64,000 bases of DNA from Naegleria gruberi (Eukaryota). Of the stretch, positions 527 through 61,422 are shown in pieces; the stretch's first letter is position 1, and the number at the start of each line of letters is the position of its first letter. A program made the translations under genes and the position numbers. Where the stretch lies: the NCBI GenBank assembly GCA_000004985.1, contig GG738852.1, one strand, 5' to 3'. The notes beneath the pieces are model-generated. The model ran no database searches. It saw only the letters and a program-made list of their open reading frames with translations, and was not told the origin of the DNA.

Positions 527-3500
527 ATGAAGAAACATCAATGCATTAAAAATATAATAACAATAGAAAAAAATATTGCAACAATGTCCACTCAACCAAA
601 GACACTCACTGTTGGTCTCTTCCCATATCTTCCTTCTTGGAATGAAAATGGCAACGAAGTTAAATTGATCAATTTGATCAAGGATGTTTTGCCAACTCAG
701 GTTTCCGGATATAATATCGAATATACCGAATTTGATTGTTACAGTGATGCTAGTCTTCAAAGTCTTCCAGATGTTTTCTCAACTGATAGCATTTTCCTTC
801 CATATCTTGTTTCTTTGGGTGGTGTCAAGAGTTTGGATGAATCATTGGTTCGTGGTGTTACTGGTGATTTGCATAGTTTTGTTTCCTCAAGTGCCTCTGT
901 CAATGGTTCCGTTTATGGTTTCCCACAATACTTGTGCTCAAACTTTTTATTGTCCTCACCAAATGCTACTCAACAAGCATCTTCCCTTTTAGAATTGGCT
1001 CAAAAGGTTGGTTATGAACAAATTGTTTATCCAGATGTTGCCTCTTCTAGTTCTTTCACAGTTTTCGGATTGTATCAACAATTACTCCAATCATCATCAT
1101 CAGCTGCAGTTGATATCAAGGCCTCTGATCTTCCACAATCTGGTGACCAAGTCAACAAGGATATCACTCAAAAATATAGAACCATTTTGGATTCAACAGT
1201 TGTTGCCTCTCAAAGAGAATATATTAACTCTGTAAAGCAAGGTAAACCAATTTCAAACTACTATGTCGGATATAGTGAAAGTATGTGTGAAATTAAGGAT
1301 ATCATCAGAGATCAACAATACAATGTTCAACTCATTGGTACCTCTGATAAGCCATACGTTTATACTGATGTTTTGGCTTTGAATTCCAATTTGTGTGATG
1401 AAAAGCAAAAGGTTGCTGTTGAAGTTATCAAGAATTTATTGACTAATACTTTAGTTTTGGACTTGTTGGGTCTCGGATTAACTCTCCCAGCCAACAAGAA
1501 TGGTATTGCTCATTTGGCTAAATCATCAAACTTTTATGCTCAATTGAGCCAACAATTCGATGCCAAGGAAAGTGAAGTTAGAGTTTTGAGATGTGTTGAC
1601 TTTGCTAACAAGGAAGTTAAGAATTGTGCTGGTGTCTTGAGACCATTCCTTCAACATATTGCTGTTGCTACTTTGCGTTGTTTGACTGCTGACACTGTCG
1701 AAAAGGCTAAGAGTGGTCACCCTGGTATGCCAATTGGTATGTCACCAATTGCCTATGTTTTGTGGAAGTTCTTCTTCAAATCATCTAAGGATGATGTCAA
1801 TTGGTTGAACAGAGATAGATTTGTTTTGAGTAATGGTCACGGTTGTACATTGCTTTATGCCATGTTGCACCTCACTGATTGTAACTTGAGTTTGGATGAT
1901 CTCAAGAATTTCAGAAGTTTGCATTCCAAGACTCCTGGTCACCCAGAATATGGTCACACTGAAGGTGTTGATGCTACTACTGGTCCATTGGGTCAAGGTG
2001 TTTGTAATGCTATTGGTATGGCTCTCTCTGAAGCTCACTTGGCTGCTCGTTTCAATAAGGATGGACAAAATATCTTTGATCACCACACCTATGTTTTCCT
2101 TGGTGATGGTTGTTTGATGGAAGGTGTTGCTATGGAAGGTCTCTCATTTGCTGGTCACCAAAAGTTGAACAAGTTGATTGTTTTCTATGATGACAATAGT
2201 ATTACTATTGATGGTAAGACTGAATTGACCTTTACTCAAAATACTCCAGAAGTCATGAGAGGTTTTGGATGGCACGTAATTGTTGTCGACAAGGCTGATA
2301 ATGACTTGGTTGGTATTAAGGAAGCTATTTTGGAAGCTCACACTGTTACTGACAAGCCAATCATGATCGTTTGTAAGACTACAATTGGTTATTCCTCAAA
2401 GGTTCAAGGTACTGCTAAGGTTCACGGTTCTCCATTGGGTGCTGATGGATTGAAGAATTTGAAGGAAACTTGTGGTTTCACTGGTAATGATTTCTTCCAT
2501 GTTCCAGAAATTGTCAGAAAGGACTTTGCTACTGTCATTAATAGAAATAGTGAAAAGCTCTCTCAATGGAAGCAAGTTAAATCTGCCTATGATACCACTC
2601 ATGCTACTGAATCCCAACTCCTCCAAAGAATGATTAATCACGAATTGGAAGGTGATGTTATGGAAAAGTTGCCAAAATACCTCGAACAAAAGAAGATTGC
2701 TACCAGATCTACATCTCAACAAGTTTTGAATGCCATCTATCCACTCATTCCTTCTCTCGTTGGTGGTTCAGCTGACTTGACTCCATCCAACTTGACTGAT
2801 GTAACTGGATGTCAAGATTTCCAACCAAACAATAGAGTTGGTAGATATATCAGATTTGGTGTCCGTGAACATGCCATGGTTGCTATTGCCAATGGTATTC
2901 TCTATCATGGTGTTCTTAGAACCTATGTTGGTACATTCTTGAACTTTGCTTCATATGCTTTGGGTGCTATCAGATTGAGTGCCTTGTCTGGTCTTCCAAA
3001 TATTTATGTTTTCACTCATGACAGTATTGGTCTTGGTCAAGATGGTCCAACTCACCAACCTGTTGAAGTTTTACCAATGTTGAGAGCCATTCCAAATCAC
3101 ATTGTTTTCAGACCTGCTGATGGTAGAGAAACCAGTGGTGCTTATTTGTGGGCTGTTCAATCAAAGAAGACTCCATCCTCAATGATTCTTTCTCGTCAAG
3201 ATTTGCCACAATTGACTGGTACTGATATTTCAAAGGTTGCTTTGGGTGCCTATGTTATTCAAGGTGATGCTACTCCTGATGTTGTCCTTGTTGGTACTGG
3301 TTCTGAAGTTTCCCTCATGGTTGAAGCTGCTGAAAAGTTGAAGGCTAACCTTAAGGTTAACGTTGTTTCCATGCCAAGTTGGGAATTGTTTGTTCGTCAA
3401 TCAGAAGAATACAGGAAGACTGTCTTCCCAGATGGTATTCCAGTTGTCAGTGCCGAAGCTTCATCAACCTTTGGTTGGACAAGCTTTGCTCACTATGCTG

Positions 3501-3661
3501 TTGGTATGACTACTTTCGGTGCTAGTGCTGCTGCTGAAGAAGTTTACAAACTCCTCAAGATTACCTCAGACAATGTTGCTGAAAAGGCCACCAAATTGGT
3601 TACCAAGTATGGTAAGCAAGCTCCAAGACTCAGCTTGTCTCTTGTTGGTGAAGAACTCTAA
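527..3661 (+). CDS. tkt: Transketolase (TPP-dependent) carrying a ~370-aa N-terminal extension of unknown affinity
   Basis: 1044-aa single ORF. Residues ~375-1044 align end to end with yeast/bacterial transketolase (TADTVEKAKSGHPG, GDGCLMEG, THDSIGLGQDGPTHQP, C-terminal domain). ATG at 527; a second in-frame ATG at 584 (acaATGtcc) is an equally plausible start. Residues ~20-375 are not transketolase-like. Confidence 0.88.
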   Translation: MKKHQCIKNIITIEKNIATMSTQPKTLTVGLFPYLPSWNENGNEVKLINLIKDVLPTQVSGYNIEYTEFDCYSDASLQSLPDVFSTDSIFLPYLVSLGGVKSLDESLVRGVTGDLHSFVSSSASVNGSVYGFPQYLCSNFLLSSPNATQQASSLLELAQKVGYEQIVYPDVASSSSFTVFGLYQQLLQSSSSAAVDIKASDLPQSGDQVNKDITQKYRTILDSTVVASQREYINSVKQGKPISNYYVGYSESMCEIKDIIRDQQYNVQLIGTSDKPYVYTDVLALNSNLCDEKQKVAVEVIKNLLTNTLVLDLLGLGLTLPANKNGIAHLAKSSNFYAQLSQQFDAKESEVRVLRCVDFANKEVKNCAGVLRPFLQHIAVATLRCLTADTVEKAKSGHPGMPIGMSPIAYVLWKFFFKSSKDDVNWLNRDRFVLSNGHGCTLLYAMLHLTDCNLSLDDLKNFRSLHSKTPGHPEYGHTEGVDATTGPLGQGVCNAIGMALSEAHLAARFNKDGQNIFDHHTYVFLGDGCLMEGVAMEGLSFAGHQKLNKLIVFYDDNSITIDGKTELTFTQNTPEVMRGFGWHVIVVDKADNDLVGIKEAILEAHTVTDKPIMIVCKTTIGYSSKVQGTAKVHGSPLGADGLKNLKETCGFTGNDFFHVPEIVRKDFATVINRNSEKLSQWKQVKSAYDTTHATESQLLQRMINHELEGDVMEKLPKYLEQKKIATRSTSQQVLNAIYPLIPSLVGGSADLTPSNLTDVTGCQDFQPNNRVGRYIRFGVREHAMVAIANGILYHGVLRTYVGTFLNFASYALGAIRLSALSGLPNIYVFTHDSIGLGQDGPTHQPVEVLPMLRAIPNHIVFRPADGRETSGAYLWAVQSKKTPSSMILSRQDLPQLTGTDISKVALGAYVIQGDATPDVVLVGTGSEVSLMVEAAEKLKANLKVNVVSMPSWELFVRQSEEYRKTVFPDGIPVVSAEASSTFGWTSFAHYAVGMTTFGASAAAEEVYKLLKITSDNVAEKATKLVTKYGKQAPRLSLSLVGEEL

Positions 3662-24276: not shown

Positions 24277-27054
24277 ATGTCGCTAATCTACTTGGACTAT
24301 AATGCTACCACACCAATAGATGTTGCAGTCTCCTCTGCAATGATTCCATACATGACCCAACATTTTGGCAATCCATCTTCGTCTCATCACTACGGCACTA
24401 TTACTAAGAAGGCAGTCACACGATCACGTATTCAAGTTTCACAATTGTTGAATTGTCATCCCGATGAGGTGATTTTTACGAGGTTTGTTTTTTAATGCAA
24501 ATTATGAATGACACACTGTAAAACAGTGGAGGAACAGAAAGTAATAATTATGCAATCAAGGTGTGTTTTAATCAATTTTATAATAATAATAATTTTATTC
24601 ATCTAATTTTAACATTAATACCTAAAAATTGGAATTGATCAATTAATTTAAATGAATTTTAATGAATTATTAAAGGGTATTGTGGAGAATGCCCTGTTAA
24701 ACTCAAGTGATCGAATCATTCATTGTATTACATCTAGAGTTGAACATCCTTCAGTGATGGAAGTTTTCAAATTTCTAGAACAAAGATATAGTCGAGTAAG
24801 AGTAACGTATTGTGGTGTTGATGAGAATGGCACGATTAGATTGGACGAATTTAAAAATGCACTGAGTAGGGAGACTCTTTTGGTTAGTGTCATGCATTCG
24901 AATAATGAAGTTGGCACACTGCAACCAATTAGAGAAATTGGAAAATTAATTAGAAGTTTTGAAAAGGAGAATCAAATGGAGAGAAATTCAATCATTTTAC
25001 ATACAGATGCTGCTCAAAGTATTGGAAAAACTTTAATTTCATTATATGAGAAACCATTATACTCTTACATTGATGATGAGGAACAAGGAAAGAAAATTGA
25101 CTTGGACAGAAATGAAATTAGGAACAAGGTGATGGCTCTCAATGAGAATTTTGTAAGTGATCTCTTTGGAACGAGTAGTGATACGGAGGAAGAGGATATC
25201 ACACCGGTTCACCTACTTTCTGTATGTACACACAAATTCTATGGTCCAAAGGGTGTTGGTGCCTTATTTATCAGAAGAAATTGTGGCATTCAATTAGAGA
25301 AACAAGTGCATGGAGCTTCTGTTCATGAGAGAGGATACAGAAGTGGTACTGAGAATGTTATTCTAGTTGTTGGATTAGGTAAAGCCTGTGAGCAATGCCT
25401 TATTCATATGGTTGACAGAGTTGAACACATGTTTACAACAAGGGAGAAACTTTACAATGGATTGTTAAACAACTTGTCAAATATTGTACAAATCAAACTG
25501 AATGGTCATCCAGAGAAGAGACTTCCAAACACTTTGAATATTTCTTTTGCTGGAATTGAGGCTAATACAATTTTAGATGATCTCTCCCAACACATTGCAG
25601 CAAGTGCTGGTTCAGCTTGCCACTCTTCATCTCATGAGGAAGGCGCAGAGAAGAAAATTGTAATTTCACAAATATTGGCTGAAATGGGAGTGGATGTAAA
25701 TATTGCTATGGGAACTATACGTTTCTCAACTGGTTTATTATTGACAAATGATGAGGTTGAGAGTGCTATTCACCATGTTACTGATACTATTAGCAAATTG
25801 AGTGGTGGAAATGCATCTTTTGCAATTACTTCTCAATTAAGCAATAGTTTATTCACACCAATAGAAGTTCCATCTATCAAATCAGGACTGGATTTGGCAA
25901 TGAAAAGAGTAGTGGAAGATATGGTTGAACCTTCATTTTCTGCAGAGAATGAGGGATTCAATGTGAAACTCACCTCCACAACTCACGGATTGGGATGTGG
26001 ATGCAAGATTAGAGCACAAACACTCTCAAGTATTTTGAGCAAGATACCAAAGCAACCATTCGATCCTAATGTTCTGGTTGGAACTGAGACGAGTGACGAT
26101 TGTGGTGTGTACAAGCTTACTTCTGAGCTTGCACTGTGCGCCACTGTTGACTTTTTTACACCTATTGTCGATTCTCCAAAAGATTTCGGAGCCATTGCAT
26201 GCGCCAACGCCTTAAGTGATGTTTATGCAATGGGAGGAGAGTGTAAAGTTGCTCTCAATATTGTGGCCTTCCCAGTTAAGAGACTCTCATTAGATATTTT
26301 ACAATTGATTCTGCAAGGTGCACAAGAAAAAGCCAGTGAAGCTGGTGTTACCATCATTGGTGGTCACTCAATAGAAGATAATGAACCAAAGTTTGGTATG
26401 TGTGTCAGTGGCTTGGTTCATCCTGAACGAATTTGGAAGAATGTTGGATGCAGAAATGGAGATGTACTCTTATTGACCAAACCTATTGGTACAGGAGTAC
26501 TCACTACAGCCATGAAGAAAGGACTTATTGGACCTAATGATGATTGTTCCAAGAAGTGTATCGAATGGATGTCCACACTTAATAAGAGTGCCTCAGAAAT
26601 TTTGAGAGGCTTGCACAGAGTAAATTCATCCTCCACACCATATGAAATACATGCCTGCACGGATATTACAGGTTTTGGATTAATGGGTCACTTAAGAGAA
26701 ATGATTACTGGAGACAATCAAGATAATTTATATGCACAAATTGAATCTGAAAAAGTTCCATTCATGGACAAGGCCTATGAAATGATTCTCTCAGATATCA
26801 TTCCTGGTGGTACAATTAACAATATGAATTTTGTTCAAAAGATCACTAAATTCAATGAGAGTGTTAGTCAAATTGTAAGAACTTTATTGTGTGATGCTCA
26901 AACCTCTGGTGGTCTCTTATTTAGTGTTTCTCCACATGAGAGTGAGGAAATTATTTCTGATTTCAAGAGATTAGGTATTTCAATATGGACAGTTGGTTCT
27001 ATTAAGCAACATGATACATGTTCCAATGATAATTGTACCATTCACGTATTGTAA
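24277..27054 (+). CDS. Fusion protein: N-terminal NifS-like class-V aminotransferase (cysteine desulfurase / selenocysteine lyase) joined to C-terminal selenophosphate synthetase (SelD/SPS, Cys type); 3 exons including a 34-nt micro-exon
   Basis: Exons 24277..24482, 24527..24560 (micro-exon encoding (S)GGTESNNYAIK) and 24676..27054, with GTTTGT..AG and GTGTGT..AG introns. Frames checked. The NifS part is YLDYNATTPID...HHYGT...FTSGGTESNN...SVMHSNNEVGT...FSAHKFYGPKG.... The SPS part runs from about 25950 and includes HGLGCGCKI (Cys, no in-frame TGA), VLVGTETSDDCGVYKL, DFFTPIVDSPKDFGAIA. Confidence 0.8.
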
Positions 27055-36028: not shown

Positions 36029-36271
36029 TGTGATGATGAGGATATTTTTTGTTCGCTTTTGCAAAATTTGTGTTCAACTTTTTTCCGCTATTTTGTGAAG
36101 ATTGGATGACGTCATGTGAAATCACCTATTGAATTGATTGGATAACGCTCACAAACGATATTGGTTCCAATTTTTATTAATTATTGTTAATAAAACAATA
36201 ATGAACATAAATATATATGTTGAATTGTTTTGAGTGCAAATAATAAGGAATGTTATGGTACTCCCAACGAG

Positions 36272-36352
36272 CGGTCTTGACCGAGTGGTTAAGGTGATTG
36301 ACTAGAAATCAATTGGGGCGACCCGCACAGGTTCGAATCCTGTAGACCGCGA
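36272..36352 (+). tRNA. tRNA-Ser (anticodon AGA, decodes UCU), long variable arm
   Basis: GCGGTCTTGACCGAGTGGTTAAGGTGATTGACTAGAAATCAATTGGGGCGACCCGCACAGGTTCGAATCCTGTAGACCGCG. Acceptor stem GCGGTCT/AGACCGC. D-loop GAGTGGTTAAGG. Anticodon loop CTAGAAA. T-arm GGTTCGAATCC. No encoded CCA. Followed by a T-run. Confidence 0.85.
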
Positions 36353-48089: not shown

Positions 48090-49240
48090 TTACAATCTAT
48101 TTGAAGCACCACCACAAGTATTTCTCATAATAATTGATTCAGATGAAACACCTGGACCGAAAGCAACAGCAATAGACCATTCATTATTGAGATATTGTTG
48201 AGTTCTTCTATATAATTCCATTACAAACATAATGGTAACAGAGGACATGTTACCATATCTTGTCATGATATCCCATGAGGCCTTCAAATCTTCACGATTC
48301 ATTGTCAATGCCTTTTCAACTGCATACAAGATTGCCTTACCACCTGGGTGAGCCAAAACATTACAATTTTCCTTCAAAACAATTTCATCCTTGTGTTGAG
48401 ACTTCTTCAACAAGGTATTAATGTAATCCTTGAGTGAGTTGGTAATGATTTGTGGAACTTCAGGTGACAAGCTCAAGTGGAAACCATCATGGAAAACTTT
48501 CCATGTCATGCATTCATCAGTATTTGGAGTAGTGTAAGAGTGAGTATCGAATAATTCATAAACAGGTTTTTCACCCTTTTGAGCTTGTGGTTGAGAACCA
48601 ACAACCATTGAGGCAACACCATCACCAAAGATGGCACTAACAATCTTTTCATCAGTATTATTGGAAATTCTAAAGTGAACAGATGACAATTCAATACAAA
48701 TGACCAAAACTCTATTCTTTGGATTGAGAGAAGTCAAAGCACGAGCAGCCTTCAAAGTAATCAAACCAGCAGCACATCCTGACATGTTGATTGGGAAATA
48801 TTCAACAGCGTGAGACAATCCAAGTCTATCCATAAACTTCAAGTGAATATTTGGAACAGCAATACCAGTTGAGGTACAAGTAATGAGGTGAGTAATTTCC
48901 TTAACATCACCCTTCCATTCATCAATGGCCTTAGAAGCAGCTTGATAAGCCAATTCTGGGGCAACCTTCAAGAAGATATCATTTCTACTTTCAATAGTCT
49001 TCAAATCATTGGTAGAATTCTTGGTAAAATCGAAAGCAACACATCTTTCCTTAATTTCACAGCCCTTGAACAAGTTGTGAATTCTTTCCTTGATCTTTTC
49101 GTCAGCAGTTCCGTAATCCTTCATGATACCTTCGAAGAGTTCTTCTTGAGTCTTTCTTGGAGGATTGGCAACACCAATACCAAGAATGTAAGCATTGCTT
49201 GGGTTCTTCATGTTGGCCTTTCTGGCATGAGCAGCAAATT
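48090..49240 (-). other. Type III PKS (chalcone/stilbene synthase-like) domain forming the C-terminus of the hybrid PKS
   Basis: Catalytic triad context Cys (INMSGCAAGLITL), His (LAHPGGKAIL), Asn (RYGNMSSVTIMFV), plus the GFGPG-like AFGPGVSSES near the C-terminus. Domain boundaries are approximate. Confidence 0.8.
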
Positions 49241-52200
49241 CCTTAACTGGAACACTTTCAGGAACAACAGTCTTAGTGAGTGGAGTGTTATCAGTGGTGG
49301 TAGTAGTGACTGTTGTGGTAGCAGTAACAACTGGAGTTTGTTGAGCGACAACAGGTTTTGGTTGTTCAGCAACAACTGGTTTTGGTTGAACTGGAGTAGC
49401 AGCAGAGGCAACAGCAGTTGGAGTAGCAGTCTTGGTTTGCTTGGCTGGTTCAGATTTTTTAGAAGTCTTAGATTCCTTCTTTTCAGATGAAGCAGCTCCC
49501 ATCTTGTCCATAATCTTAGCAGCAAGTGACTTGACAGTTGTGTCCTTCTTCAAGATATCAATGGTTGTGATTGAACCACGAGGATACATCTTATCCAACC
49601 AGTTCTTCAATTGAGTAGCCATCAAAGAGTCCATACCGTATTGTCTGAGTGGTTCAGCAATTTCAATAGCTTCTAATGGAATACCCAAAATCTTGGCCAA
49701 TTGAGTGGCAATCATTTGATCGACAGTTAATTGAGAAGTAGAAGCATCCATACCAGCATCTTGAGCAGTTTCAATAAACAATTCACCGAACATCTTCTTC
49801 AAATGCTTAAAGTTATCAGAGTGATCCTTCCAATCAATACAACTGATAATCTTTTGTGGTTGAGCATCAGTTTGTTGAGAAATCAATGCCTTTTCAAGAC
49901 ATTTAACCAAGAGTGGAATTGGCATAGAAATGAAACCTCTTGATCTCAAAATAACCTTAGTTGAGTATTGTCTTGAAACAAAACCATCATCAATGGCACC
50001 AAAGTTAACACTCAATGCTGGTAAATTCTTTGACTTTCTGTAGTGGGCAAGAGCATCCAAAATACAATTGGCAGCAGCATAATTGGATTGTTCCATATTA
50101 CCATTGATAGCAACAAAGCTGGAGAACATGACAAAATATTTGATAGAGTTTTCATTCAAAGTAGCATGGTGAACATTCCAAGCAGAAACAGCCTTAGCTT
50201 GAATGACATTGTTGAACTTGGTTTCAGTCATGTTATTGATGGAACAATCTTCATATACAGTAGCAAGATGGAAAACTGATTCCAATGGTGGCATATTCAA
50301 AGTGGTACGAACTTGAGTAATGATATTTTCAACATTTTGTCTGTTAGAAACATCACATGGCAAAACTTGAATATTCAAAGAAGAGTCAGTCTTGATCAAT
50401 TCTTCAATTCTATCCTTTGATTGACCTTCAGTCAATTTACCACTTCTTGAGAGAATGACTAAATTCTTAACTTGCTTTTGTTCAATGAGCCATAAAACGA
50501 GGGACAAACCAACACCACGAGTACCACCAACAACCAAATGAGTCTTGTCAGAAGAGAAGGTCAATCCACGCATTTCTTCCTTCAATTTTTCATATCTTGG
50601 AATGGAGGTTTCCAAATCTTCATTGGTCATGTTGAGGACAATCTTACCAATGTGCTTGGCATGAGCCATAAAATTGAAAGCATCATGAAGCTTTTCCTTA
50701 TCATAGACAACATATGGCAATGGGAAGAGTCTCTTTTGCTCCATCAAATCCATAACTTCTCTGAACATTTGTTGAACAAGTTCTGGCTTTTCGTCCATCA
50801 TTCTGTCCAAATCAACTGAGGCATAGGTCAAGTTACGATGCATTTGTTGCAAATTGACACAAGTACCATCATAGATATCTCTAATACCAATTTCGACAAA
50901 TCTACCATATGAACCCAATGATTCAAAGTTGGCAGACAACATATCAGTACCAGCCAAAGAGTTCAAAACAACATCACAACCCTTTCCATTAGTGAATTTC
51001 ATAACATCATCACGGAAACTAGTTGAACGAGAATCAGTAGTGTAATGAACCTTATAGGTTTCATCTTGTTCCAAGAAGGTTCTCTTCTCACCACGACCAG
51101 CTGTACCAATGGTGACGGCACCAAAGTGATTAGCAATTTGAACAGCAGACAACCCAACAGCACCAGCTGCAGAGTGAATCATACAGGTTTCTCCCTTTCT
51201 CAATCTGGCAACATGAACCAAACCATACCATGAAGTCAAGAAGGCAGATGGAATAGTTGAAGCTTGTTCGTAGGACATCCAATCTGGTTTCTTAATAGCG
51301 AGACTTGACTTGACATTGACATAGGATGAGAAACATTTTCTAGCAATACAGACAACCTTATCACCAATCTTAAAGTCAGTAACAGATGGGCCAACTTCAA
51401 CAATGACACCAGAACATTCCAAACCGAATGGTGGATTCCATTTACCACCTCTTCTAAAAGCCTTATCTGGAATTCTACCCAATGAGAACATTAAATCCTT
51501 GAAACTCAAAGCAGAAGCCTTAACTGAAATTCTAACTTCATCAGCTTCAAGTGGAACAAATTCTTCAACTTCATGGAATGACAATTCACTAACTGAACCA
51601 ATTGAGTTGGACTTTAAGGTAACTGGAGCGTTTGGCTTTTGAATCAATGTTGATTTGACAACCTTCAAATACTTCAAGTCACCACAAGCAGCTAAAGCCA
51701 ATTCGTTATATTCCAAATTGTCACAATTTACAAAGAGGTTAGAAATAGTTTGGGAAGCAATGTCCATGTTGATACCTTCAGAGAAATCGAACAAGAAACT
51801 CTTAATGTTTGGATGTTCACTTCTGAAAGTTCTACCAATACCAACAAATTGAGCAGATGATGGAACAGAGTAGGTGAGTTGAGCACCCTTGGTGACAATC
51901 CACAATTTAGTTTCACATGATTCATGGTCAAGTTCAATCTTGATCATTTCCTTAATAATTTGCATCAATCTCCAAGAGTTGGATTCTTGAGTGACTTGAT
52001 TATCTTCAGCAACGTTAGCAACAAACACAATACCAGAAATTTCTTGATTTTGAGCGAGCATGTTAACAGCTTGTTCAGCAGAAACAATTGTAGTAGAAAC
52101 AGCAGACAAGGAAGAGACAACAGCCTTGGTCATGTCAGATTCAGCAACATCAGAGACAACAATCCATTGTTGAGCAACAGATTGTTCTTCTTGTTCGACT

Positions 52201-55200
52201 GGAGCAGTCATTTCAGTCAATTCTTCCTTATTGGCGGAAGTCCAAGCAACATCATACATACAATCATTAGAAGTAATGGTAAAGACAGTTGGACAAGATG
52301 CTTGAGTAATAGCTCTACACTTGACGCACAAGAATGAAGCAATTGGAACAATAGAACCTTGCTTGTGGCCATAAATAAAGACGTCACCTTCAAGTTCATA
52401 TTGAGATTGATTAGTCATCTTGCAGTAAACTGAAATACTATCCATGTCTGGGACCAATTGGTTCAAACAAACTTCAGTATTCAAAACACAAGTATCAATT
52501 GAAGATGGAATGTATACGATAGCATCTTCTTCAGCAATAGCGATCAATGATTGCAAACAAGAATCCAAAATACCAACTTCCAAAACAGACTTGTGTCTCT
52601 TAGTATCCAAGAGACTCTTTGGTCCTTCATCGAATTTCTTCTTCAATGACAATTCACTGACACCTTCATTCTTACCAACATAAATCTTATCCAATTGTTG
52701 GAAAACTGGACCATATTCAAGACCCATCTTTCTCAATTTAGAGTAGAGTTCATTCTTTGACATTGAGACTTCCATGCAACGTGGCTTGACTTCATCCAAG
52801 TTTGGATGAGTCTTTAAATTGGTTGGTGGCAACATTCTCAAGAAACACTTATAGTGATCGAGCCAATCTTCCAAACCTCTCTTACTCTTAATTTCAATCA
52901 TTTGACTATTTTGAGTTCCGTGAACTAATGGAGTAACATCAGTTTCAACAATGAAACCACCTGGTGCAGTTTGAGATAAGGATAGAGCACCCTTAAAGTC
53001 ACATCCTTGCAAAATGAATTGCTTTGGAAGTTCCTTTTGTTCAGAGTCCTTTTCATTAGCTCTGATTTGAGCAACAGCAGCGTGGAGAGACATTAAAACA
53101 TAGGAAACACCTGGATAAATGATATCACCTTGAATAACGTGATCCTTCAAGTTAGGGAAGTGATCCAATGAAATTCTATTTTGGAATGTAACACTACCAG
53201 ATCTCAAACTCTTGTGTCCAACCAAATTAGATGGATAACCTCTTCTCCATTCAGCAGCTTGTTCTTCAGTTTGATTCCAAATCATTTGACTTCTATCCCA
53301 TGGGTAGAATGGAACTTTAACCTTATTGAAAAGGTGATTCCAGTTGACATTTTCTCTGAAGGTAACATTGTGAATGAATCCATTGACGAATAAATCTCTA
53401 GCACATTGGAGCATAGTTTCTTGTTCATCAACGAAACGCTTCAAAGTAAAGTAACACTTGGTATCTTCAATACCCAATTCAGAAGCACATTCCTTAATGG
53501 AAGCAGCAAGAACTGGATGAGGACTCAACTCAACAAATCCTCTGTAACCTTGTTTTAACAAATCAGTAATTGGATCAGCAAAGAGAACAGCTTGTCTAAC
53601 ATTACCCCACAAATAGTGTTCATCCATATTTTCAACAGTGGTATCATACAATTTACCAGTAACAGTAGAGTAGAGTGGAATGAGGGTTGGTTTACCACGG
53701 CTGACTGGTGAGAAATTCTTCAAAGCATTCAACATTTCTTCCTTAATTGGTTCTTGATATTGAGAGTGGAATGCACAATAACCTCTCAACTTTCTACAAA
53801 AGACTCCCTTACCCTTGGAAATATCTTGTTCCAACTTGTTAATGAGTTGAGGAGAACCAGCCAAAGTACATGATCCAGGACCATTGATAGCAGCAACAAC
53901 AACAGCAGAACGATCTTCACCACTCAAATATTCATCCAAGTAGAGTTCACATTGAGCTGGAGAGACACCAACAGCCAACATGTTACCAGATCCACAGGTC
54001 TTTTCTTGCAAGGTACTTCTCCAATACAAGATGGTAATGGCTTCTTCCAAAGTATAGACACCAGCAGCATAGGCACTACCAACTTCACCAGCAGAGTGAC
54101 CAACAACGACAGATGGATGAATATTCCAAGCTTTCATCATGGCATATAAACCAGCTTGGAGGAAGAAGATAGCTGGTTGAGCATAGAGTGGGTGATCCAT
54201 ATCATCATCAGTTAAACATTGTTCCTTAATCCACTTTCCAACAAGAGACCATCCAGACAATTGACTGAACAATCTATCACATTCATCCAAACAATTTCTG
54301 AAAATTTCATACTTGTTATAGAGTTGGATACCCATGGATTTAGTTTGTGGACCTTGACCTGGGAAGACAAAGACGAATCCCTTATCACTTCTATTTGAAT
54401 TATGTACAATACCCTTAGATCTAAGAGTATCAGCAGATTCGGATGCAATTGTCTTCAATTGTTTGACACAATCTTCAACAGAGCTAGTAATGATAGTACT
54501 TCTCAATTTGTGATGAGATCTAAATTGATTTTGAACAGTAAAGACATCAATCATAGAATCCTTATCATGGATACATTCCTTGCTTGATAAATCTTGAGCA
54601 AGACTTTGGAGGGATGGAATGGATTGTGCAGACAACATCATCATGACCTTTTCGCTTTCCTTTTCTGGCAATTTTGGTGCTTCCAACTTTGGTTGCTCGA
54701 ATTCTTCCAAAATGACGTGAGCATTGACACCACCAATACCCATAGAGTTAATACCAAAGACCAATGGCTTGGAACCTCTCTTCTTAACCAATGGAATTGG
54801 TTCAGTAACAACTCTCATATTATACTTATCCAATGGAATCTTTGGATTCAACTTTTTAATATTGGCAACTGGACATAAGAGTCTCTTTTCCATCATGAGA
54901 ACAGCCTTAATTAAACCAGCGACACCAGATGCACATTCCAAGTGACCAATATTACCCTTAACAGAACCAACATAGATTGGTTTGGATCTATTTGGACCGG
55001 AGAGAACTTCACCAATGGCAACAGTTTCAACAACGTCACCCTTAGCAGTACCAGTACCGTGACATTCAACATAATCAACTTCGAATGGTGACAAGATACT
55101 AGCAGTTTCTTCTGGTAATCTATCATAAGCTTTCTTAATATTCAAAGCTTGAGTAATTGAGGAAGGAGTGATCAAAGAATCTTCAGCAGCACCATCAACA

Positions 55201-56066
55201 TTGACACTTGAACCACGAATGACACCATAAATACGGTCACCACTTTCAAGAGCCTTCTTCAATGGCTTTAAAACAACTAAACCAGCACCTTCACCTCTAA
55301 CGAAACCGTTGGCAGATTCATCGAATGGTTTACACTTACCATCCTTTGATAAAACACCAACTTTACTAAACTCGCAATAAGGAGATGGAGAAAGGATTAA
55401 AGAGACACCACCTGCAATAGCCATTTCACACTCATTATTCTTCAAGCTCATACATGCTTGATGAACTGCAACGAGAGAAGATGAACAAGCAGTATCAATA
55501 CTCATAGATGGACCTCTAAAATCATAGAGGAATGAAATACGGTTAGAGGCAATACTCAAAGTATTACCATTGTGAGTGTATGAAGTAATTCTTTCAAAAT
55601 TATTGTTATCCAATTGAACAGTGTAAAAGTCCAATTGACCAATACCGATAAAGACACCAGTTTCATCGAACAAATGACCATTTGTGCTATCTTTCTTTGG
55701 TCTAATACCAGCATCTTCTAAACATTCCCATGTTAATTCTAAAAGTAAACGTTGTTGTGGATCCATAACTTCCACTTCTTTTTGACCAACACCCAAAACA
55801 CTACAATCGAAAGCCTTGATTTGATCCTCGGGTATGTAAGCACCACGAGATGAAGACATTAATCCAGGAACATTGGAAGCATCAGTAGATTCCCAATTTT
55901 GAGATTTCCATCTCCATTCAGGTGTATCGGTAATGTGTTCTTGGCATTCAGTGAGGAGCTTCCAAAATTCGTGCTTATCTTTAGCTCCAGGTAAACGACA
56001 GGAAAGACCAACAATGGCATAACTGTCAGCAGTGATATGATTGTGATTATTTGTAGTTGTAGACAT
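48090..56066 (-). CDS. Hybrid polyketide synthase: reducing type I PKS (KS-AT-DH-ER-KR-ACP) with a C-terminal type III PKS (chalcone-synthase-like) domain; single 8-kb exon
   Basis: First ATG at 56064-56066 (MSTTTNNHNH...); ORF-track M at 56102 is TTG. KS: DTACSSSLVAV, ECHGTGT, GHLECASG. AT: GHSAGEVGSAYAAG. DH: LDHFPNLKDHVIQGDIIYPG. ER: GLECSGVIVEVG...IHSAAGAVGLSAV. KR: VVGGTRGVGLSLVLWL. ACP: QYGMDSLMATQL. A Pro/Thr/Val-rich linker follows. Type III domain, about 48090..49240: MSGCAAGL (Cys), HPGGKAIL (His), YGNMSSV (Asn), AFGPGV. No SAM-methyltransferase motif found. Confidence 0.9.
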   Translation of the reverse strand: MSTTTNNHNHITADSYAIVGLSCRLPGAKDKHEFWKLLTECQEHITDTPEWRWKSQNWESTDASNVPGLMSSSRGAYIPEDQIKAFDCSVLGVGQKEVEVMDPQQRLLLELTWECLEDAGIRPKKDSTNGHLFDETGVFIGIGQLDFYTVQLDNNNFERITSYTHNGNTLSIASNRISFLYDFRGPSMSIDTACSSSLVAVHQACMSLKNNECEMAIAGGVSLILSPSPYCEFSKVGVLSKDGKCKPFDESANGFVRGEGAGLVVLKPLKKALESGDRIYGVIRGSSVNVDGAAEDSLITPSSITQALNIKKAYDRLPEETASILSPFEVDYVECHGTGTAKGDVVETVAIGEVLSGPNRSKPIYVGSVKGNIGHLECASGVAGLIKAVLMMEKRLLCPVANIKKLNPKIPLDKYNMRVVTEPIPLVKKRGSKPLVFGINSMGIGGVNAHVILEEFEQPKLEAPKLPEKESEKVMMMLSAQSIPSLQSLAQDLSSKECIHDKDSMIDVFTVQNQFRSHHKLRSTIITSSVEDCVKQLKTIASESADTLRSKGIVHNSNRSDKGFVFVFPGQGPQTKSMGIQLYNKYEIFRNCLDECDRLFSQLSGWSLVGKWIKEQCLTDDDMDHPLYAQPAIFFLQAGLYAMMKAWNIHPSVVVGHSAGEVGSAYAAGVYTLEEAITILYWRSTLQEKTCGSGNMLAVGVSPAQCELYLDEYLSGEDRSAVVVAAINGPGSCTLAGSPQLINKLEQDISKGKGVFCRKLRGYCAFHSQYQEPIKEEMLNALKNFSPVSRGKPTLIPLYSTVTGKLYDTTVENMDEHYLWGNVRQAVLFADPITDLLKQGYRGFVELSPHPVLAASIKECASELGIEDTKCYFTLKRFVDEQETMLQCARDLFVNGFIHNVTFRENVNWNHLFNKVKVPFYPWDRSQMIWNQTEEQAAEWRRGYPSNLVGHKSLRSGSVTFQNRISLDHFPNLKDHVIQGDIIYPGVSYVLMSLHAAVAQIRANEKDSEQKELPKQFILQGCDFKGALSLSQTAPGGFIVETDVTPLVHGTQNSQMIEIKSKRGLEDWLDHYKCFLRMLPPTNLKTHPNLDEVKPRCMEVSMSKNELYSKLRKMGLEYGPVFQQLDKIYVGKNEGVSELSLKKKFDEGPKSLLDTKRHKSVLEVGILDSCLQSLIAIAEEDAIVYIPSSIDTCVLNTEVCLNQLVPDMDSISVYCKMTNQSQYELEGDVFIYGHKQGSIVPIASFLCVKCRAITQASCPTVFTITSNDCMYDVAWTSANKEELTEMTAPVEQEEQSVAQQWIVVSDVAESDMTKAVVSSLSAVSTTIVSAEQAVNMLAQNQEISGIVFVANVAEDNQVTQESNSWRLMQIIKEMIKIELDHESCETKLWIVTKGAQLTYSVPSSAQFVGIGRTFRSEHPNIKSFLFDFSEGINMDIASQTISNLFVNCDNLEYNELALAACGDLKYLKVVKSTLIQKPNAPVTLKSNSIGSVSELSFHEVEEFVPLEADEVRISVKASALSFKDLMFSLGRIPDKAFRRGGKWNPPFGLECSGVIVEVGPSVTDFKIGDKVVCIARKCFSSYVNVKSSLAIKKPDWMSYEQASTIPSAFLTSWYGLVHVARLRKGETCMIHSAAGAVGLSAVQIANHFGAVTIGTAGRGEKRTFLEQDETYKVHYTTDSRSTSFRDDVMKFTNGKGCDVVLNSLAGTDMLSANFESLGSYGRFVEIGIRDIYDGTCVNLQQMHRNLTYASVDLDRMMDEKPELVQQMFREVMDLMEQKRLFPLPYVVYDKEKLHDAFNFMAHAKHIGKIVLNMTNEDLETSIPRYEKLKEEMRGLTFSSDKTHLVVGGTRGVGLSLVLWLIEQKQVKNLVILSRSGKLTEGQSKDRIEELIKTDSSLNIQVLPCDVSNRQNVENIITQVRTTLNMPPLESVFHLATVYEDCSINNMTETKFNNVIQAKAVSAWNVHHATLNENSIKYFVMFSSFVAINGNMEQSNYAAANCILDALAHYRKSKNLPALSVNFGAIDDGFVSRQYSTKVILRSRGFISMPIPLLVKCLEKALISQQTDAQPQKIISCIDWKDHSDNFKHLKKMFGELFIETAQDAGMDASTSQLTVDQMIATQLAKILGIPLEAIEIAEPLRQYGMDSLMATQLKNWLDKMYPRGSITTIDILKKDTTVKSLAAKIMDKMGAASSEKKESKTSKKSEPAKQTKTATPTAVASAATPVQPKPVVAEQPKPVVAQQTPVVTATTTVTTTTTDNTPLTKTVVPESVPVKEFAAHARKANMKNPSNAYILGIGVANPPRKTQEELFEGIMKDYGTADEKIKERIHNLFKGCEIKERCVAFDFTKNSTNDLKTIESRNDIFLKVAPELAYQAASKAIDEWKGDVKEITHLITCTSTGIAVPNIHLKFMDRLGLSHAVEYFPINMSGCAAGLITLKAARALTSLNPKNRVLVICIELSSVHFRISNNTDEKIVSAIFGDGVASMVVGSQPQAQKGEKPVYELFDTHSYTTPNTDECMTWKVFHDGFHLSLSPEVPQIITNSLKDYINTLLKKSQHKDEIVLKENCNVLAHPGGKAILYAVEKALTMNREDLKASWDIMTRYGNMSSVTIMFVMELYRRTQQYLNNEWSIAVAFGPGVSSESIIMRNTCGGASNRL

Positions 56067-57664
56067 TCTTTGATCTATATGGTTGTTATCGTGACTATAC
56101 AATTGATTAATTGATCAAAGTGTTTGTGTTGTTGTATATAGATTCTCTATATAATGTTTTGGGTTGATTTTGTGTCTTTTTTTCAGACTTGCAATTTGTC
56201 TAAGGTGGCCTTGCAGTTCTCTTAAAGGTTCAAATTTGAGTACTATGCTGAAGTGTGCTATTGTGACACAAAAATTGAAACTAGCTGTTGTTGTGGAGAG
56301 TCCTCTCTCTTCGAATCAACATTCAACATCTCTCTCCTTTCTTACATCACCAGCACACAGAAAGTAGAGTGCTCTCTCTTGAGGAATCAACAACATTGCT
56401 GTTGATGATATTCATGAAGAATCTGAAAAGATCTTTTGCCAACAACCATCCACTTGGTTAAAAGAAAGTTTGAGGAATCAAATGTTAACTTTTGAGTGAA
56501 AGAAGGCACTTCTTCTCGGCATTTTCCAGAAATCAACGGACACTTTGGAATAAATTCACCGTACATGTAGGCCATTTCTATCGAGTATTTGATAGTTCCA
56601 AATTGCTGGAATGTTTGAAATTCCAAATCAGCAATTGGGTTACGATCAAATTTCTAAATTTTTCAAGCTGTATTTTGCTTCTTAATACCTTACTGTAAGT
56701 TTGAATTGCATTTTCAATGTGTTTCTTAATGAAGTGTGCAGTGGGTCATTGCAATAAGGAGTAATCGATAGAGTTACTACTAGTCGATTGAAAAGATAAT
56801 TTAAGGAACTTAATATCCTTCCTCCCATTCATATTAACAGATAACAAGACAGATCATATATTGGCTCATATTGCATTAATACTAAACAGTAAGCGCTGAT
56901 GCTTCAAGTTGTTTTTACAGCCATTGGTACACTGCAAAGGAATATAGGGCAGAACTTTCATATTGATGGTTCTCTTGAAGCTTCATATGATTGAAAGGTT
57001 CTTCATCCAGCAACACCTCATCATCAGAAAGCATAATATTCATGATTATTAATCATTCAATGTCCTCTCAACGTCCACGTTTCTTTTATAGATTAAATTC
57101 CAATCCTAGAAGCCAATACAAATCATGCTTATTGTATAGAAATTTATTGTAATTTTCTATTGCGTTCCGATAATAATAAAAGATAATCACACTATTCAAC
57201 TTTAAATTTTCGAAAGCATAGAATACAGCCCACCATTTCAATGCATTCTTTATTCTGTGCCTGAACCTGTGTGACAACCCAATTTTGTACAGACACTTTG
57301 AATTTTCCTGTGAATTGGACATAAAACTTGATGTGCGATTGTATACTATTTGAGGATTGTTAGATATGGAATCAACAAAGATAAGTGGTAATTATCTGGC
57401 TGCAATTATGTTAGAAAAAATGTCTCAATCTCTTACACTTGTATTCTTGTGAAACCTTAATGAAATCAGAGCATGAATCAACAAATTTATTAAAATAATA
57501 ATAAAAAAATTGTCAAATAATACCTCTTAAATGTTGATCATATTTGAACCCATTTTACATTCTCTTTATATTCAAAACTTTTCATCCCTAAAGTAAAAGT
57601 GAAAATTAACTTTACACCTGCTATTCAAAAATTTGCTTGAAAGTAAAAAAAATTGAATTAAAAA

Positions 57665-59808: not shown

Positions 59809-61422
<1,614 letters not shown>

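What the first reader, a model, noticed from the sequence alone, without database searches (positions are those of the whole stretch)
24277..27054. NifS-like (selenocysteine-lyase/cysteine-desulfurase) domain fused to selenophosphate synthetase, spliced through a 34-nt micro-exon; SPS is the Cys form
Three exons (24277..24482, 24527..24560, 24676..27054) join a PLP-dependent NifS-like domain to a full SelD/SPS domain (HGLGCGCKI..., DFFTPIVD...). The fusion would channel selenide released from selenocysteine straight into selenophosphate synthesis. From memory, this fusion has been reported for only a few protists (I recall Naegleria). The Gly-Gly-Thr-Glu-Ser-Asn segment conserved in NifS is supplied only by the 34-nt micro-exon, so an ORF scan misses it. 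The SPS active-site residue is Cys, not Sec (no in-frame TGA). The nearby TrxR also carries Cys-Cys rather than Cys-Sec. Retaining SPS still implies selenium use.
Basis: partly seen in the sequence, partly recalled or inferred. Interest (0 to 1): 0.6.

Follow-up and report, generated by a model that had tools for sequence, protein, structure and literature searches.

The report
Known Naegleria NifS–selenophosphate synthetase fusion gene
This is a real three-exon gene that joins a NifS-type selenocysteine/cysteine lyase to a bacterial-type selenophosphate synthetase, but it is the same Naegleria gruberi NifS-SPS gene already published in 2015, so it is correct but not new.

Summary
Exons 24277..24482, 24527..24560 and 24676..27054 (+) splice through two GT..AG introns of 44 and 115 nt. 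The product is an in-frame 872-aa protein.

- Residues 1-455 are a group-I NifS/IscS-type PLP enzyme. The PLP lysine K267 and catalytic Cys395 are present.
- Residues 509-872 are a full bacterial-type SelD, with Cys521 at the Sec/Cys site and Lys524.
- The 34-nt micro-exon encodes GGTESNNYAIK. This is 11/11 identical to the orthologues in N. lovaniensis and Willaertia magna, which encode the stretch without introns.

The SPS part is residue-for-residue the "SPS.1.cysteine.Naegleria_gruberi" entry (GG738852.1:697921-699003) of Mariotti et al. 2015. That paper describes this gene as a NifS-SPS fusion with small introns and Cys at the Sec site, acquired from bacteria as an already fused gene. It also proposes the selenocysteine-recycling role. 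At least 115 bacterial clusters carry the same architecture.

- Both introns around the micro-exon are absent from the two orthologues whose DNA was read.
- The fusion family has an invariant Cys-His at the lyase active site, as in animal selenocysteine lyase.
- One bacterium encodes a Sec-type SelD directly downstream of its fusion gene.

Selenium channelling remains untested.

The parts
24277..24482 (+). Exon 1. It runs from the start codon ATG at 24277 and encodes aa 1-68 plus 2 nt of codon 69. This is the N-terminus of the NifS-like domain (MSLIYLDYNATTP...EVIFT).
   Evidence: The start agrees with the orthologues (W. magna MSEPIYLDYNATTP; bacterial M..IYLDYNATTP).
24483..24526 (+). Intron 1: 44 nt, GTTTGT...AAACAG, 27% GC.
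   Evidence: It is absent at the homologous site in N. lovaniensis (L001) and W. magna (L002).
24527..24560 (+). The 34-nt micro-exon. It completes Ser69 and encodes GGTESNNYAIK (aa 70-80).
   Evidence: It is 11/11 identical to the heterolobosean orthologues. G71, E73, S74, N75, N76 and A78 are invariant in alignment A1.
24561..24675 (+). Intron 2: 115 nt, GTGTGT...TTAAAG, 14% GC.
   Evidence: It is absent in L001 and L002. Retaining it gives a stop codon.
24676..27054 (+). Exon 3. It encodes aa 81-872 plus the stop TAA at 27052..27054. A single exon carries the rest of the NifS-like domain, the linker and the whole SelD domain.
   Evidence: The open reading frame is continuous across the domain junction.
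24277..25800 (+). NifS/IscS-like PLP domain (aa 1-455, introns included in the span). Key residues are H104, D191, Q194, the PLP lysine K267 (25234..25236), catalytic Cys395 followed by His396 (25618..25623), and R429. A heterolobosean-specific insert covers aa 205-257. An insertion of about 8 aa relative to E. coli IscS follows the Cys loop (aa ~400-409).
   Evidence: Pfam Aminotran_5. Alignment to E. coli IscS 1p3w at 6.2e-70. Invariant columns in A1. Foldseek TM 0.87-0.93 to NFS1/IscS/NifS.
25801..25959 (+). Inter-domain linker (aa 456-508). It is much longer than in the bacterial fusions and is predicted to be disordered.
   Evidence: The A1 alignment shows gaps here in all bacterial rows. 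AF2 pLDDT is below 50 for residues 458-534.
25960..27051 (+). SelD/selenophosphate synthetase domain (aa 509-872). The Gly-rich loop HGLGCGCK carries Cys521 (25996..25998) and Lys524 (26005..26007). Metal/ATP ligands are D555, D572, N591, D595 and D743.
   Evidence: NCBIfam TIGR00476 scores 352 bits (cut-off 125) and NF002098 scores 337.6 (cut-off 299). Alignment to E. coli SelD 3u0o at 4e-73. It is identical to SPS.1.cysteine.Naegleria_gruberi in the Mariotti 2015 supplement.

Best explanation
This is the nuclear NifS-SPS gene of Naegleria gruberi. It is a bacterial-origin gene that was acquired already fused and has since gained spliceosomal introns.

What it encodes. The protein is bifunctional and has no N-terminal extension ahead of the conserved NifS core; localisation was not tested.
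1. Residues 1-455 are a group-I NifS/IscS-type PLP enzyme. It should remove selenium from free L-selenocysteine, and probably also sulfur from cysteine. The chalcogen would be held as a perselenide or persulfide on Cys395, which sits on a mobile loop.
2. Residues 509-872 are a Cys-type SelD. Its flexible N-terminal Gly-rich loop (Cys521/Lys524) would accept the selenium. ATP would then convert it to selenophosphate, the selenium donor for Sec-tRNA(Sec) synthesis.

Physiological role. The covalent tether would keep reactive selenide from being released. That would make the enzyme a selenocysteine-salvage selenophosphate synthase. It would work alongside the organism's second SPS, the methyltransferase-SPS2.

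Shown here: the gene structure, both domains, all catalytic residues, the bacterial affinity, and identity with the published gene. Inferred, not shown: Sec lyase activity, intramolecular or intradimer selenium transfer, and the physiological role.
For: Gene model and frame.

Domains.

Catalytic residues. They are conserved against E. coli IscS (H104, D180, Q183, K206, C328, R354) and E. coli SelD (C17, K20, D51, D68, N87, D91, D227). They are invariant across 16 fused homologues.

Folds. AF2 predicts two confident domains. The low-confidence segments are the Cys395 loop (394-402) and the linker plus SelD N-terminal loop (458-534). Fold matches are to NFS1/IscS/NifS, SCLY and SelD.

Bacterial origin of a pre-fused gene. 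After three heterolobosean proteins and two metagenome proteins (P0004, on a contig with eukaryotic neighbours, and P0005), the best hits are about 115 bacterial clusters with the same three Pfam domains at 43-47% identity. The SelD half matches E. coli SelD at 4e-73 but human SEPHS1 only at 3e-28. The six presumed eukaryotic sequences group together for each half separately.

Not contamination. The gene has spliceosomal introns and eukaryotic neighbours such as a GH71 gene and a polo kinase.

Identity with the published gene and the same functional proposal: PMC4561486 and its Supplement S2.

Functional coupling of separate proteins. E. coli NifS-like proteins supply Se to SelD (Lacourciere 2000, as cited). 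T. brucei SCLY binds SEPHS2 through the SEPHS2 N-terminal region (PMC7595633).

Selenium context in bacteria. In L006 the selenouridine synthase MnmH/SelU lies 5.4 kb upstream. In L007 a Sec-type SelD, a Se_S_carrier, YedE-like transporters and TusA lie directly downstream.
Against: - No transcript evidence could be obtained, so the splice junctions rest on homology and GT..AG rules only.
- No biochemical study of any NifS-SelD fusion was found in the searchable library.
- The lyase half is closer to general cysteine desulfurases than to Sec-specific SCLY. At the position of the human SCLY specificity residue Asp146 it has Pro105. Selenium specificity is therefore unproven.
- AF2 pTM is 0.54, so nothing can be said about domain arrangement.
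- Two of the four bacterial neighbourhoods examined show no selenium genes.
Confidence: 0.72

Rival explanations
1. The N-terminal half is a general cysteine desulfurase that mobilises sulfur, for example for Fe-S clusters or thiolation. The SelD half uses free selenide independently. The fusion would then reflect co-regulation rather than selenium hand-over.
For: The best sequence matches are IscS/NFS1/NifS rather than SCLY. The SCLY determinant Asp146 is not present; the residue is Pro105. Group-I NifS enzymes act on both Cys and Sec (Mariotti Supplement S2; Collins 2012).
Against: - The same architecture is kept in at least 115 bacterial clusters and six presumed eukaryotic sequences, always with NifS N-terminal to the selenium-accepting loop of SelD.
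- The fusion family has a conserved Cys-His, as in SCLY, not the Cys-Thr of E. coli IscS; Collins 2012 gives Thr or Ala for non-specific enzymes.
- The domain scores below the NifS, IscS and SufS equivalog cut-offs.
- Selenium genes neighbour the fusion in some bacteria.
Confidence: 0.13
2. The fused enzyme makes selenophosphate mainly for a non-Sec use, such as 2-selenouridine in tRNA or a selenium cofactor. The methyltransferase-SPS2 would serve Sec synthesis.
For: In one bacterium the fusion lies near MnmH/SelU. N. gruberi has a second SPS that complements E. coli selD (da Silva 2013, as summarised).
Against: No SelU/MnmH or selenium-cofactor gene is present in this window. The rest of the genome could not be examined. 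The literature reports Sec machinery and selenoproteins in N. gruberi.
Confidence: 0.1
3. The fusion is not real. It could be two adjacent genes, a mis-joined model, a pseudogene, or bacterial contamination of the assembly.
For: There are no transcript data. The exact 872-aa product is not in the protein collection.
Against: - A single 2379-nt exon runs uninterrupted from NifS residue 81 through the whole SelD domain.
- All catalytic residues are intact.
- Orthologous fused genes exist in N. fowleri, N. lovaniensis and W. magna.
- The gene has spliceosomal introns, AT-rich composition and eukaryotic flanking genes.
- Mariotti 2015 independently predicted the same fusion.
Confidence: 0.02

Closest known systems
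NifS-SPS fusion of Naegleria gruberi (Mariotti et al. 2015, Genome Res; PMC4561486, Supplement S2; SPS.1.cysteine.Naegleria_gruberi, GG738852.1:697921-699003)
   Same: It is the same gene. The SPS-domain sequence is identical residue for residue, and the coordinates differ from the window by a constant 672000. The published description is also the same: NifS N-terminal, SPS C-terminal, Cys at the Sec site, small introns, and bacterial origin by horizontal transfer of a fused gene.
   Different: Nothing substantive differs. The paper's text does not spell out the 34-nt micro-exon. It does not note that both flanking introns are missing in other heteroloboseans.
Bacterial NifS-SelD fusions (Geobacter sp. 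FRC-32, Caldithrix abyssi; Zhang 2008 and Mariotti 2015; many metagenome-assembled genomes)
   Same: The domain order and all catalytic residues are the same. Identity is 43-47% over 95-99% of the length. They share the EH-P, (A/C)-x-H-K and AC-H motifs. They co-occur with a second, stand-alone SPS (L007).
   Different: The bacterial proteins are about 735 aa and have a short linker. The Naegleria protein has three lineage-specific insertions (aa 205-257, the Cys loop, and the linker), GCGCK instead of GCACK, and introns. The Geobacter fusion carries Sec; this one carries Cys.
Spironucleus salmonicida selenophosphate synthetase-NifS fusion (Xu et al. 2014, PMC3916229)
   Same: The same two activities sit in one polypeptide of a protist. 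The proposed role is the same, selenocysteine lyase feeding SPS.
   Different: That paper describes the NifS-like part as lying at the C-terminal end of the SPS, which is the reverse order. Here NifS is N-terminal.
Non-covalent SCLY-SEPHS2 complex (Trypanosoma brucei, da Silva et al. 2020, PMC7595633; mouse co-IP)
   Same: A Sec-decomposing PLP enzyme is physically coupled to SPS. The interaction needs the SPS N-terminal region. In the fusion that is exactly the region tethered to the NifS C-terminus.
   Different: These are separate polypeptides. SCLY is the Sec-specific eukaryotic type with Asp146, and SEPHS2 is the eukaryotic type. Here both halves are bacterial-type and covalently joined.
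Methyltransferase-SPS2 of N. gruberi (da Silva et al. 2013, as summarised in PMC4561486 Supplement S2)
   Same: It is the second Cys-type, N-terminally extended SPS in the same organism.
   Different: It has a different N-terminal domain (arsenite/UbiE-type methyltransferase) and lies on a different scaffold (GG738883.1). It has been shown to complement E. coli selD. The NifS-SPS has not been tested.

Membership tests
SelD / selenophosphate synthetase (selenide, water dikinase; TIGR00476) | AIRS plus AIRS_C fold, scoring above the curated equivalog cut-off | tested here: met
   PF00586 at 1.7e-22 and PF02769 at 2.1e-14. TIGR00476 scores 352.3 bits against a cut-off of 125. NF002098 scores 337.6 against 299. 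Foldseek TM is 0.86-0.89 to SelD structures.
SelD / selenophosphate synthetase (selenide, water dikinase; TIGR00476) | N-terminal Gly-rich loop with Sec/Cys (E. coli Cys17) and Lys20 | tested here: met
   In HGLGCGCK, C521 aligns with C17 and K524 with K20. Both are invariant in A1.
SelD / selenophosphate synthetase (selenide, water dikinase; TIGR00476) | Asp/Asn metal-ATP ligands (E. coli D51, D68, N87, D91, D227) | tested here: met
   D555, D572, N591, D595 and D743 are aligned to them and invariant.
SelD / selenophosphate synthetase (selenide, water dikinase; TIGR00476) | ATP-dependent selenophosphate synthesis | not testable with these tools
   This needs an enzyme assay or complementation of an E. 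coli selD deletion.
Group-I NifS/IscS cysteine desulfurase (class-V aminotransferase fold) | Class-V aminotransferase fold with the PLP lysine and PLP-site His, Asp and Gln | tested here: met
   PF00266 at 4.7e-56. K267, H104, D191 and Q194 align to IscS K206, H104, D180 and Q183. TM is 0.87-0.93 to NFS1/IscS/NifS.
Group-I NifS/IscS cysteine desulfurase (class-V aminotransferase fold) | Catalytic Cys on a mobile loop (IscS Cys328) and substrate-binding Arg354 | tested here: met
   C395 and R429 are aligned to them and invariant. The loop 394-402 has low confidence in AF2, as expected for a mobile loop.
Group-I NifS/IscS cysteine desulfurase (class-V aminotransferase fold) | Scores as an equivalog of NifS, IscS, DndA or SufS | tested here: not met
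   The scores are 358.5 against a cut-off of 530.75 (NifS), 320 against 643 (IscS), 314.5 against 480 (DndA) and 94 against 475 (SufS). It is a separate subfamily of the fold, not an orthologue of these.
Sec-specific selenocysteine lyase (animal SCLY type) | Asp at human SCLY position 146, necessary and sufficient for Sec specificity (Collins 2012) | tested here: not met
   The position after the PLP-stacking His is Pro105 (EHP). It aligns with IscS K105. Pro is found in 115 of 121 fusions. The determinant is defined in PMC3266270.
Sec-specific selenocysteine lyase (animal SCLY type) | His immediately after the catalytic Cys (human H389) and Val at position 256 | tested here: inconclusive
   His396 is present, and ACH is found in all 116 fusions where the motif was located. 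Position 256 is Cys264, which is neither the Val of SCLY nor the Ser of desulfurases. Collins 2012 found that these two sites alone do not set specificity.
Sec-specific selenocysteine lyase (animal SCLY type) | Closer to SCLY or SclA than to desulfurases | tested here: not met
   SCLY 3a9x scores 1e-48 against 6e-70 for IscS. The NCBIfam SclA model scores 55 bits against a cut-off of 525.
NifS-SPS fusion proteins (Zhang 2008; Mariotti 2015) | A NifS-like domain N-terminal to a complete SPS in one reading frame | tested here: met
   The two domains are joined within one exon. The three-domain Pfam pattern is the same as in all 120 best homologues.
NifS-SPS fusion proteins (Zhang 2008; Mariotti 2015) | A bacterial-type SPS half, sharing ancestry with the bacterial fusions | tested here: met
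   E. coli SelD matches at 4e-73 against 3e-28 for human SEPHS1. Both halves give the same grouping of the six presumed eukaryotic sequences.
NifS-SPS fusion proteins (Zhang 2008; Mariotti 2015) | Co-occurrence with Sec machinery and a second SPS | not testable with these tools
   The rest of the genome is not available here. The literature reports both for N. gruberi.

The most novel reading that the evidence does not exclude
The lyase half of all NifS-SelD fusions could be a distinct, Sec-preferring subfamily. It would be marked by an invariant Cys-His dyad and a Pro in place of the Lys (desulfurase) or Asp (SCLY) specificity residue, and would be convergent with animal selenocysteine lyase. 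On this reading the fusion is a dedicated selenocysteine-salvage selenophosphate synthase. It would have subfunctionalised away from a co-resident de novo SPS. That second SPS is the methyltransferase-SPS2 in Naegleria, and a Sec-type SelD in tandem in the bacterium of L007. In N. gruberi the gene has also gained two introns only 34 nt apart since the horizontal transfer, which would be a datable case of recent intron gain.
Probability: 0.3. Interest if true: 0.4.

Novelty: already known. Interest (0 to 1): 0.15.

Why it matters
It matters little for discovery. The gene, its architecture, its Cys form, its bacterial origin and its proposed role in recycling selenocysteine were published in 2015.

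It remains a good experimental handle on an open mechanistic question: how toxic selenide is passed from a lyase to selenophosphate synthetase without being released. No fused enzyme appears to have been characterised biochemically or structurally. No solved structure covers both domains, and no such study was found in the searchable literature.

The micro-exon is a practical annotation caveat. An ORF-based or intron-naive model loses the conserved GGTESN segment and splits the NifS domain.

Tried and rejected
- The exact sequence is not in the protein collection, and no N. gruberi entry appeared among the homologues. I therefore could not see whether the public annotation already contains the micro-exon. 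The source organism's proteins are probably withheld.
- The N. fowleri orthologue P0001 has no contig on record. Intron conservation could only be checked in N. lovaniensis and W. magna.
- A scan of metagenome and metatranscriptome contigs for a 54-nt sequence spanning both splice junctions found nothing. This is uninformative rather than negative.
- Rfam at gathering thresholds found only one tRNA-Ser in the window. There is no tRNA-Sec and no SECIS.
- Midpoint-rooted NJ trees recover the eukaryotic clade but do not identify a bacterial donor lineage.
- The AF2 monomer model (pTM 0.54) cannot be used to judge domain packing or the Cys395-Cys521 distance.
- Four bacterial neighbourhoods show no universally conserved partner gene.
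- Contamination, a two-gene model and a pseudogene were considered and rejected. The reasons are given under the rival explanations.
Full report
**1. What is in the sequence**

- Exon 1 is 24277..24482.
- The micro-exon is 24527..24560 (34 nt).
- Exon 3 is 24676..27054.

Together they make 2619 nt, in frame from ATG to TAA, giving 872 aa. The introns are 44 nt (GTTTGT...AAACAG, 27% GC) and 115 nt (GTGTGT...TTAAAG, 14% GC). The window as a whole is 35% GC.

Exon 1 ends two bases into codon 69. The micro-exon completes Ser69 and adds GGTESNNYAIK. Exon 3 starts on a codon boundary. Omitting the micro-exon, or retaining either intron, produces a frameshift or stop within a few codons.

A mechanical ORF scan sees only a 72-aa and an 800-aa ORF. 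It does not list the micro-exon, so the remark that an ORF scan misses it is correct.

**2. Is the splice model more than chance?**

Yes. The spliced peptide ...EVIFTSGGTESNNYAIKGIVENALL... matches two orthologues:
- Naegleria lovaniensis: ...EIIFTSGGTESNNYAIKGVVETALL...
- Willaertia magna: ...EIIFTSGGTESNNYAIKGLIEEKL...

In the genomic DNA of both species this stretch is encoded without interruption (loci L001 and L002).

The micro-exon's 11 complete codons are 11/11 identical to those orthologues. They are 10/11 identical to the bacterial consensus GGSESNNYAIK.

Two conclusions follow. The model is secure without RNA data. Both introns flanking the micro-exon are absent from the two orthologues examined, so they were most simply gained in the N. 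gruberi lineage. They sit at AG|T and AG|G sites.

**3. What the protein is**

Profile searches. Pfam finds Aminotran_5 (4.7e-56, in two stretches because of an insertion), AIRS (1.7e-22) and AIRS_C (2.1e-14).

C-terminal half. NCBIfam places it as a true SelD. TIGR00476 scores 352 bits against a cut-off of 125, and NF002098 scores 338 against 299.

N-terminal half. It hits the NifS, IscS and DndA models strongly (314-358 bits) but below each equivalog cut-off.

Comparison with solved structures.
- Residues 4-455 align to E. coli IscS at 6e-70, and to rat and human selenocysteine lyase at about 1e-48.
- Residues 509-856 align to E. coli SelD at 4e-73, but to human SEPHS1 only at 3e-28.

Catalytic residues. 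All are present and invariant in a 16-sequence alignment of fused homologues.
- NifS half: H104, D191, Q194, K267 (PLP lysine), C395 and R429. These correspond to IscS H104, D180, Q183, K206, C328 and R354.
- SelD half: C521, K524, D555, D572, N591, D595 and D743. These correspond to SelD C17, K20, D51, D68, N87, D91 and D227.

The site that is Sec in some SPS enzymes is Cys521 (HGLGCGCK), and there is no in-frame TGA.

Structure prediction. AlphaFold2 has mean pLDDT 77.8 and pTM 0.54. It gives two confident domains. The low-confidence segments are the Cys395 loop (394-402) and the linker plus SelD N-terminal loop (458-534). Foldseek matches:
- NFS1/IscS/NifS at target TM 0.87-0.93
- SCLY at 0.88
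- SelD at 0.86-0.89

No solved chain covers both halves.

**4. Where it comes from, and what is already known**

Source. The supplementary SPS alignment of Mariotti et al. [quoted passage not shown] Its sequence (MVEPSFSAENEGFNVKLTSTTHGLGCGCKIR...WTVGSI) is identical to window 25921..27003, a constant offset of 672000. The window is therefore N. gruberi scaffold GG738852.1, about 672001-736000.

What that paper says. The main text and Supplement S2 describe this very gene.
- It is a second, Cys-containing SPS of N. gruberi whose N-terminus is homologous to NifS.
- It has 'a number of (small) introns'.
- The same architecture was found in Acanthamoeba castellanii, Geobacter sp. FRC-32 and Caldithrix abyssi.
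- The protist genes are explained by horizontal transfer of a bacterial gene that was already fused.
- The authors note that species with NifS-SPS also have another SPS. In N. gruberi this is the methyltransferase-SPS2 of da Silva 2013.
- They report Sec machinery and selenoproteins for N. gruberi: two thioredoxin reductases and a deiodinase-like protein.

**5. Evidence gathered here that agrees with that picture**

Homologues. The best matches fall into four groups.
- N. fowleri (64%), N. lovaniensis (63%) and W. magna (60%).
- Two metagenome proteins, P0004 and P0005, at 46% identity (BLASTP). The contig of P0004 carries eukaryotic genes (IFT52, CFAP161, a TRAM/LAG1 protein).
- About 115 bacterial clusters of roughly 735 aa with the same three-domain pattern at 43-47% identity. 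Names given by sources include Bacteroidales, Calditrichaeota, KSB1, Planctomycetes and Zixibacteria.

Trees. NJ trees of the NifS half, the SelD half and the full length each recover the six presumed eukaryotic sequences as one group. This fits a single acquisition of a pre-fused gene.

Heterolobosean additions.
- An insert at aa 205-257, which is partly structured in the AF2 model.
- An insertion of about 8 aa relative to E. coli IscS just after the catalytic Cys.
- A linker of about 50 aa that is predicted to be disordered.

**6. How it most likely works**

Shown here:
- Both active sites are intact.
- The two elements known from separate enzymes to carry and accept the chalcogen are present. 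These are the mobile Cys loop of NifS/IscS/SCLY and the flexible Gly-rich N-terminal loop of SelD.
- Both elements are predicted to be flexible.
- The fusion point places the NifS C-terminus directly upstream of the SelD acceptor loop.

From the literature:
- T. brucei SCLY forms a binary complex with SEPHS2 that needs the SEPHS2 N-terminal region (PMC7595633).
- Direct loop-to-loop transfer has been proposed (Itoh et al., quoted).

Inferred chain of events:
1. PLP-dependent beta-elimination of Se from L-Sec gives a Cys395 perselenide.
2. The selenium is transferred to Cys521.
3. ATP-dependent phosphorylation gives selenophosphate for SepSecS.

I put about 0.7 on this overall. Nearly all of the uncertainty lies in the transfer step and in substrate preference.

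**7. Is the lyase half a selenocysteine lyase in the strict sense?**

It is not, by the only experimentally defined determinant. Collins et al. 2012 (PMC3266270) showed that human SCLY Asp146 is necessary and sufficient for Sec specificity. Group-I desulfurases have Lys at that position. Here the residue is Pro105 (EHP), as in 115 of 121 fusion proteins.

On the other hand, the residue after the catalytic Cys is His396. It is His in all 116 fusions where the motif could be located. [quoted passage not shown]

The third Collins position is Cys264 (Ala in bacteria). It is neither Val (SCLY) nor Ser (desulfurases).

The family is thus a distinct branch of the NifS fold with a mixed signature. Its Sec/Cys preference must be measured.

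**8. Bacterial gene neighbourhoods (four sampled)**

- Two show nothing related to selenium.
- One has the selenouridine synthase MnmH/SelU 5.4 kb upstream on the same strand.
- One (L007) has several relevant genes directly downstream of the fusion. The first is a stand-alone SelD whose called ORF lacks the first ~34 model positions. Reading upstream shows MKDKEKLIKLTEHTTGAG*ASKLG, a TGA at the Cys17 position. It is therefore probably a Sec-type SelD truncated by the gene caller. A Se_S_carrier protein, two YedE-like transporters and TusA follow it.

This echoes the published observation that fusion carriers keep a second SPS. It supports a selenium role for the fusion, but it is anecdotal.

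**9.

The thioredoxin reductase is at 59812..59977 + 60065..61422 (+). An 87-nt intron splits the CVNVGC redox motif. Its C-terminus is ...YEDKTCCG followed by TAA, so it is a Cys-Cys enzyme. It lies 33 kb from the fusion gene.

The window has no tRNA-Sec and no Rfam match other than one tRNA-Ser.

**10. Verdict**

The finding is already in the literature for this exact gene.

- the explicit 34-nt micro-exon;
- the absence of its two flanking introns from the two orthologues whose DNA was read;
- three further heterolobosean orthologues (N. fowleri, N. lovaniensis, W. magna), plus P0004 on a contig with eukaryotic neighbours and its close relative P0005;
- the invariant Cys-His and EH-Pro signature of the fusion family;
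- a tandem fusion plus Sec-SelD arrangement in one bacterium.

Interest is low. The unresolved part is biochemical: whether selenium is really handed over within the fusion, and whether the lyase prefers Sec.

Noticed in passing
window 527..3661 (+): A single 1044-aa ORF joins a Thiaminase_I-like N-terminal domain (aa 139-273, 3.7e-77) to a complete transketolase (Transketolase_N, pyr and C domains). This pairs a thiamin-degrading or salvage-type domain with a thiamin-diphosphate enzyme, which is an unusual combination.
   Followed up: no
window 48090..56102 (-): A 2670-aa ORF has type I PKS/FAS domains (KS, AT, DH, ER, KR, ACP). It ends in a type III PKS (chalcone/stilbene synthase N and C domains). 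From memory, this resembles the 'Steely' hybrid PKS of Dictyostelium.
   Followed up: no
window 59812..59977 + 60065..61422 (+): This is a large thioredoxin/glutathione-reductase-type flavoenzyme (the first exon's best NCBIfam match is the TGR model, far below its cut-off). An 87-nt intron (59978..60064) splits the CVNVGC redox motif. The C-terminus is ...KTCCG* (TGT TGT GGA TAA), so it is a Cys-Cys rather than Cys-Sec enzyme. The literature reports two Sec-containing TRs elsewhere in this genome.
   Followed up: yes
L001 6001..8891 (N. lovaniensis) and L002 6001..8688 (W. magna), compared with window 24277..27054: Intron positions in the orthologous NifS-SPS genes differ between species. N. 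lovaniensis has an intron near aa 788/789. W. magna has one after aa ~19 and others near aa 306 and 491. Neither has the two N. gruberi introns around the micro-exon. This suggests independent intron gain or loss after the horizontal transfer.
   Followed up: partly
L003 8001..10391 (JGI metagenome 3300062347, contig Ga0606064_0218): P0004 is an intronless 796-aa NifS-SelD fusion. It sits on a 35.6-kb contig whose neighbours are eukaryotic ciliary and chromatin genes (IFT52, CFAP161, WAC/Acf1, TRAM/LAG1). This is an unidentified flagellated eukaryote carrying the same fusion. P0004 groups with the heteroloboseans.
   Followed up: partly
L007 8001..11298 (GCA_054774055.1, BAAGMZ010000017.1): A bacterial NifS-SelD(Cys) fusion is followed directly by a stand-alone SelD with an in-frame TGA at the Cys17 position (…TEHTTGAG*ASKLG…). 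The gene caller truncated that SelD to 314 aa. A Se_S_carrier (PF11823), two YedE-like Sulf_transp genes and TusA come next.
   Followed up: partly
Fusion family (120 homologues plus the window protein): The family has conserved active-site motifs. ACH (Cys-His) occurs in all 116 proteins where the motif was located. EH-Pro occurs in 115 of 121. The SelD loop is GCACK in bacteria and GCGCK in the six presumed eukaryotic sequences. The Cys-His resembles human SCLY C388-H389.
   Followed up: partly
window 36271..36351 (+): tRNA-Ser (anticodon AGA). It is the only tRNA and the only Rfam match in the window.
   Followed up: yes
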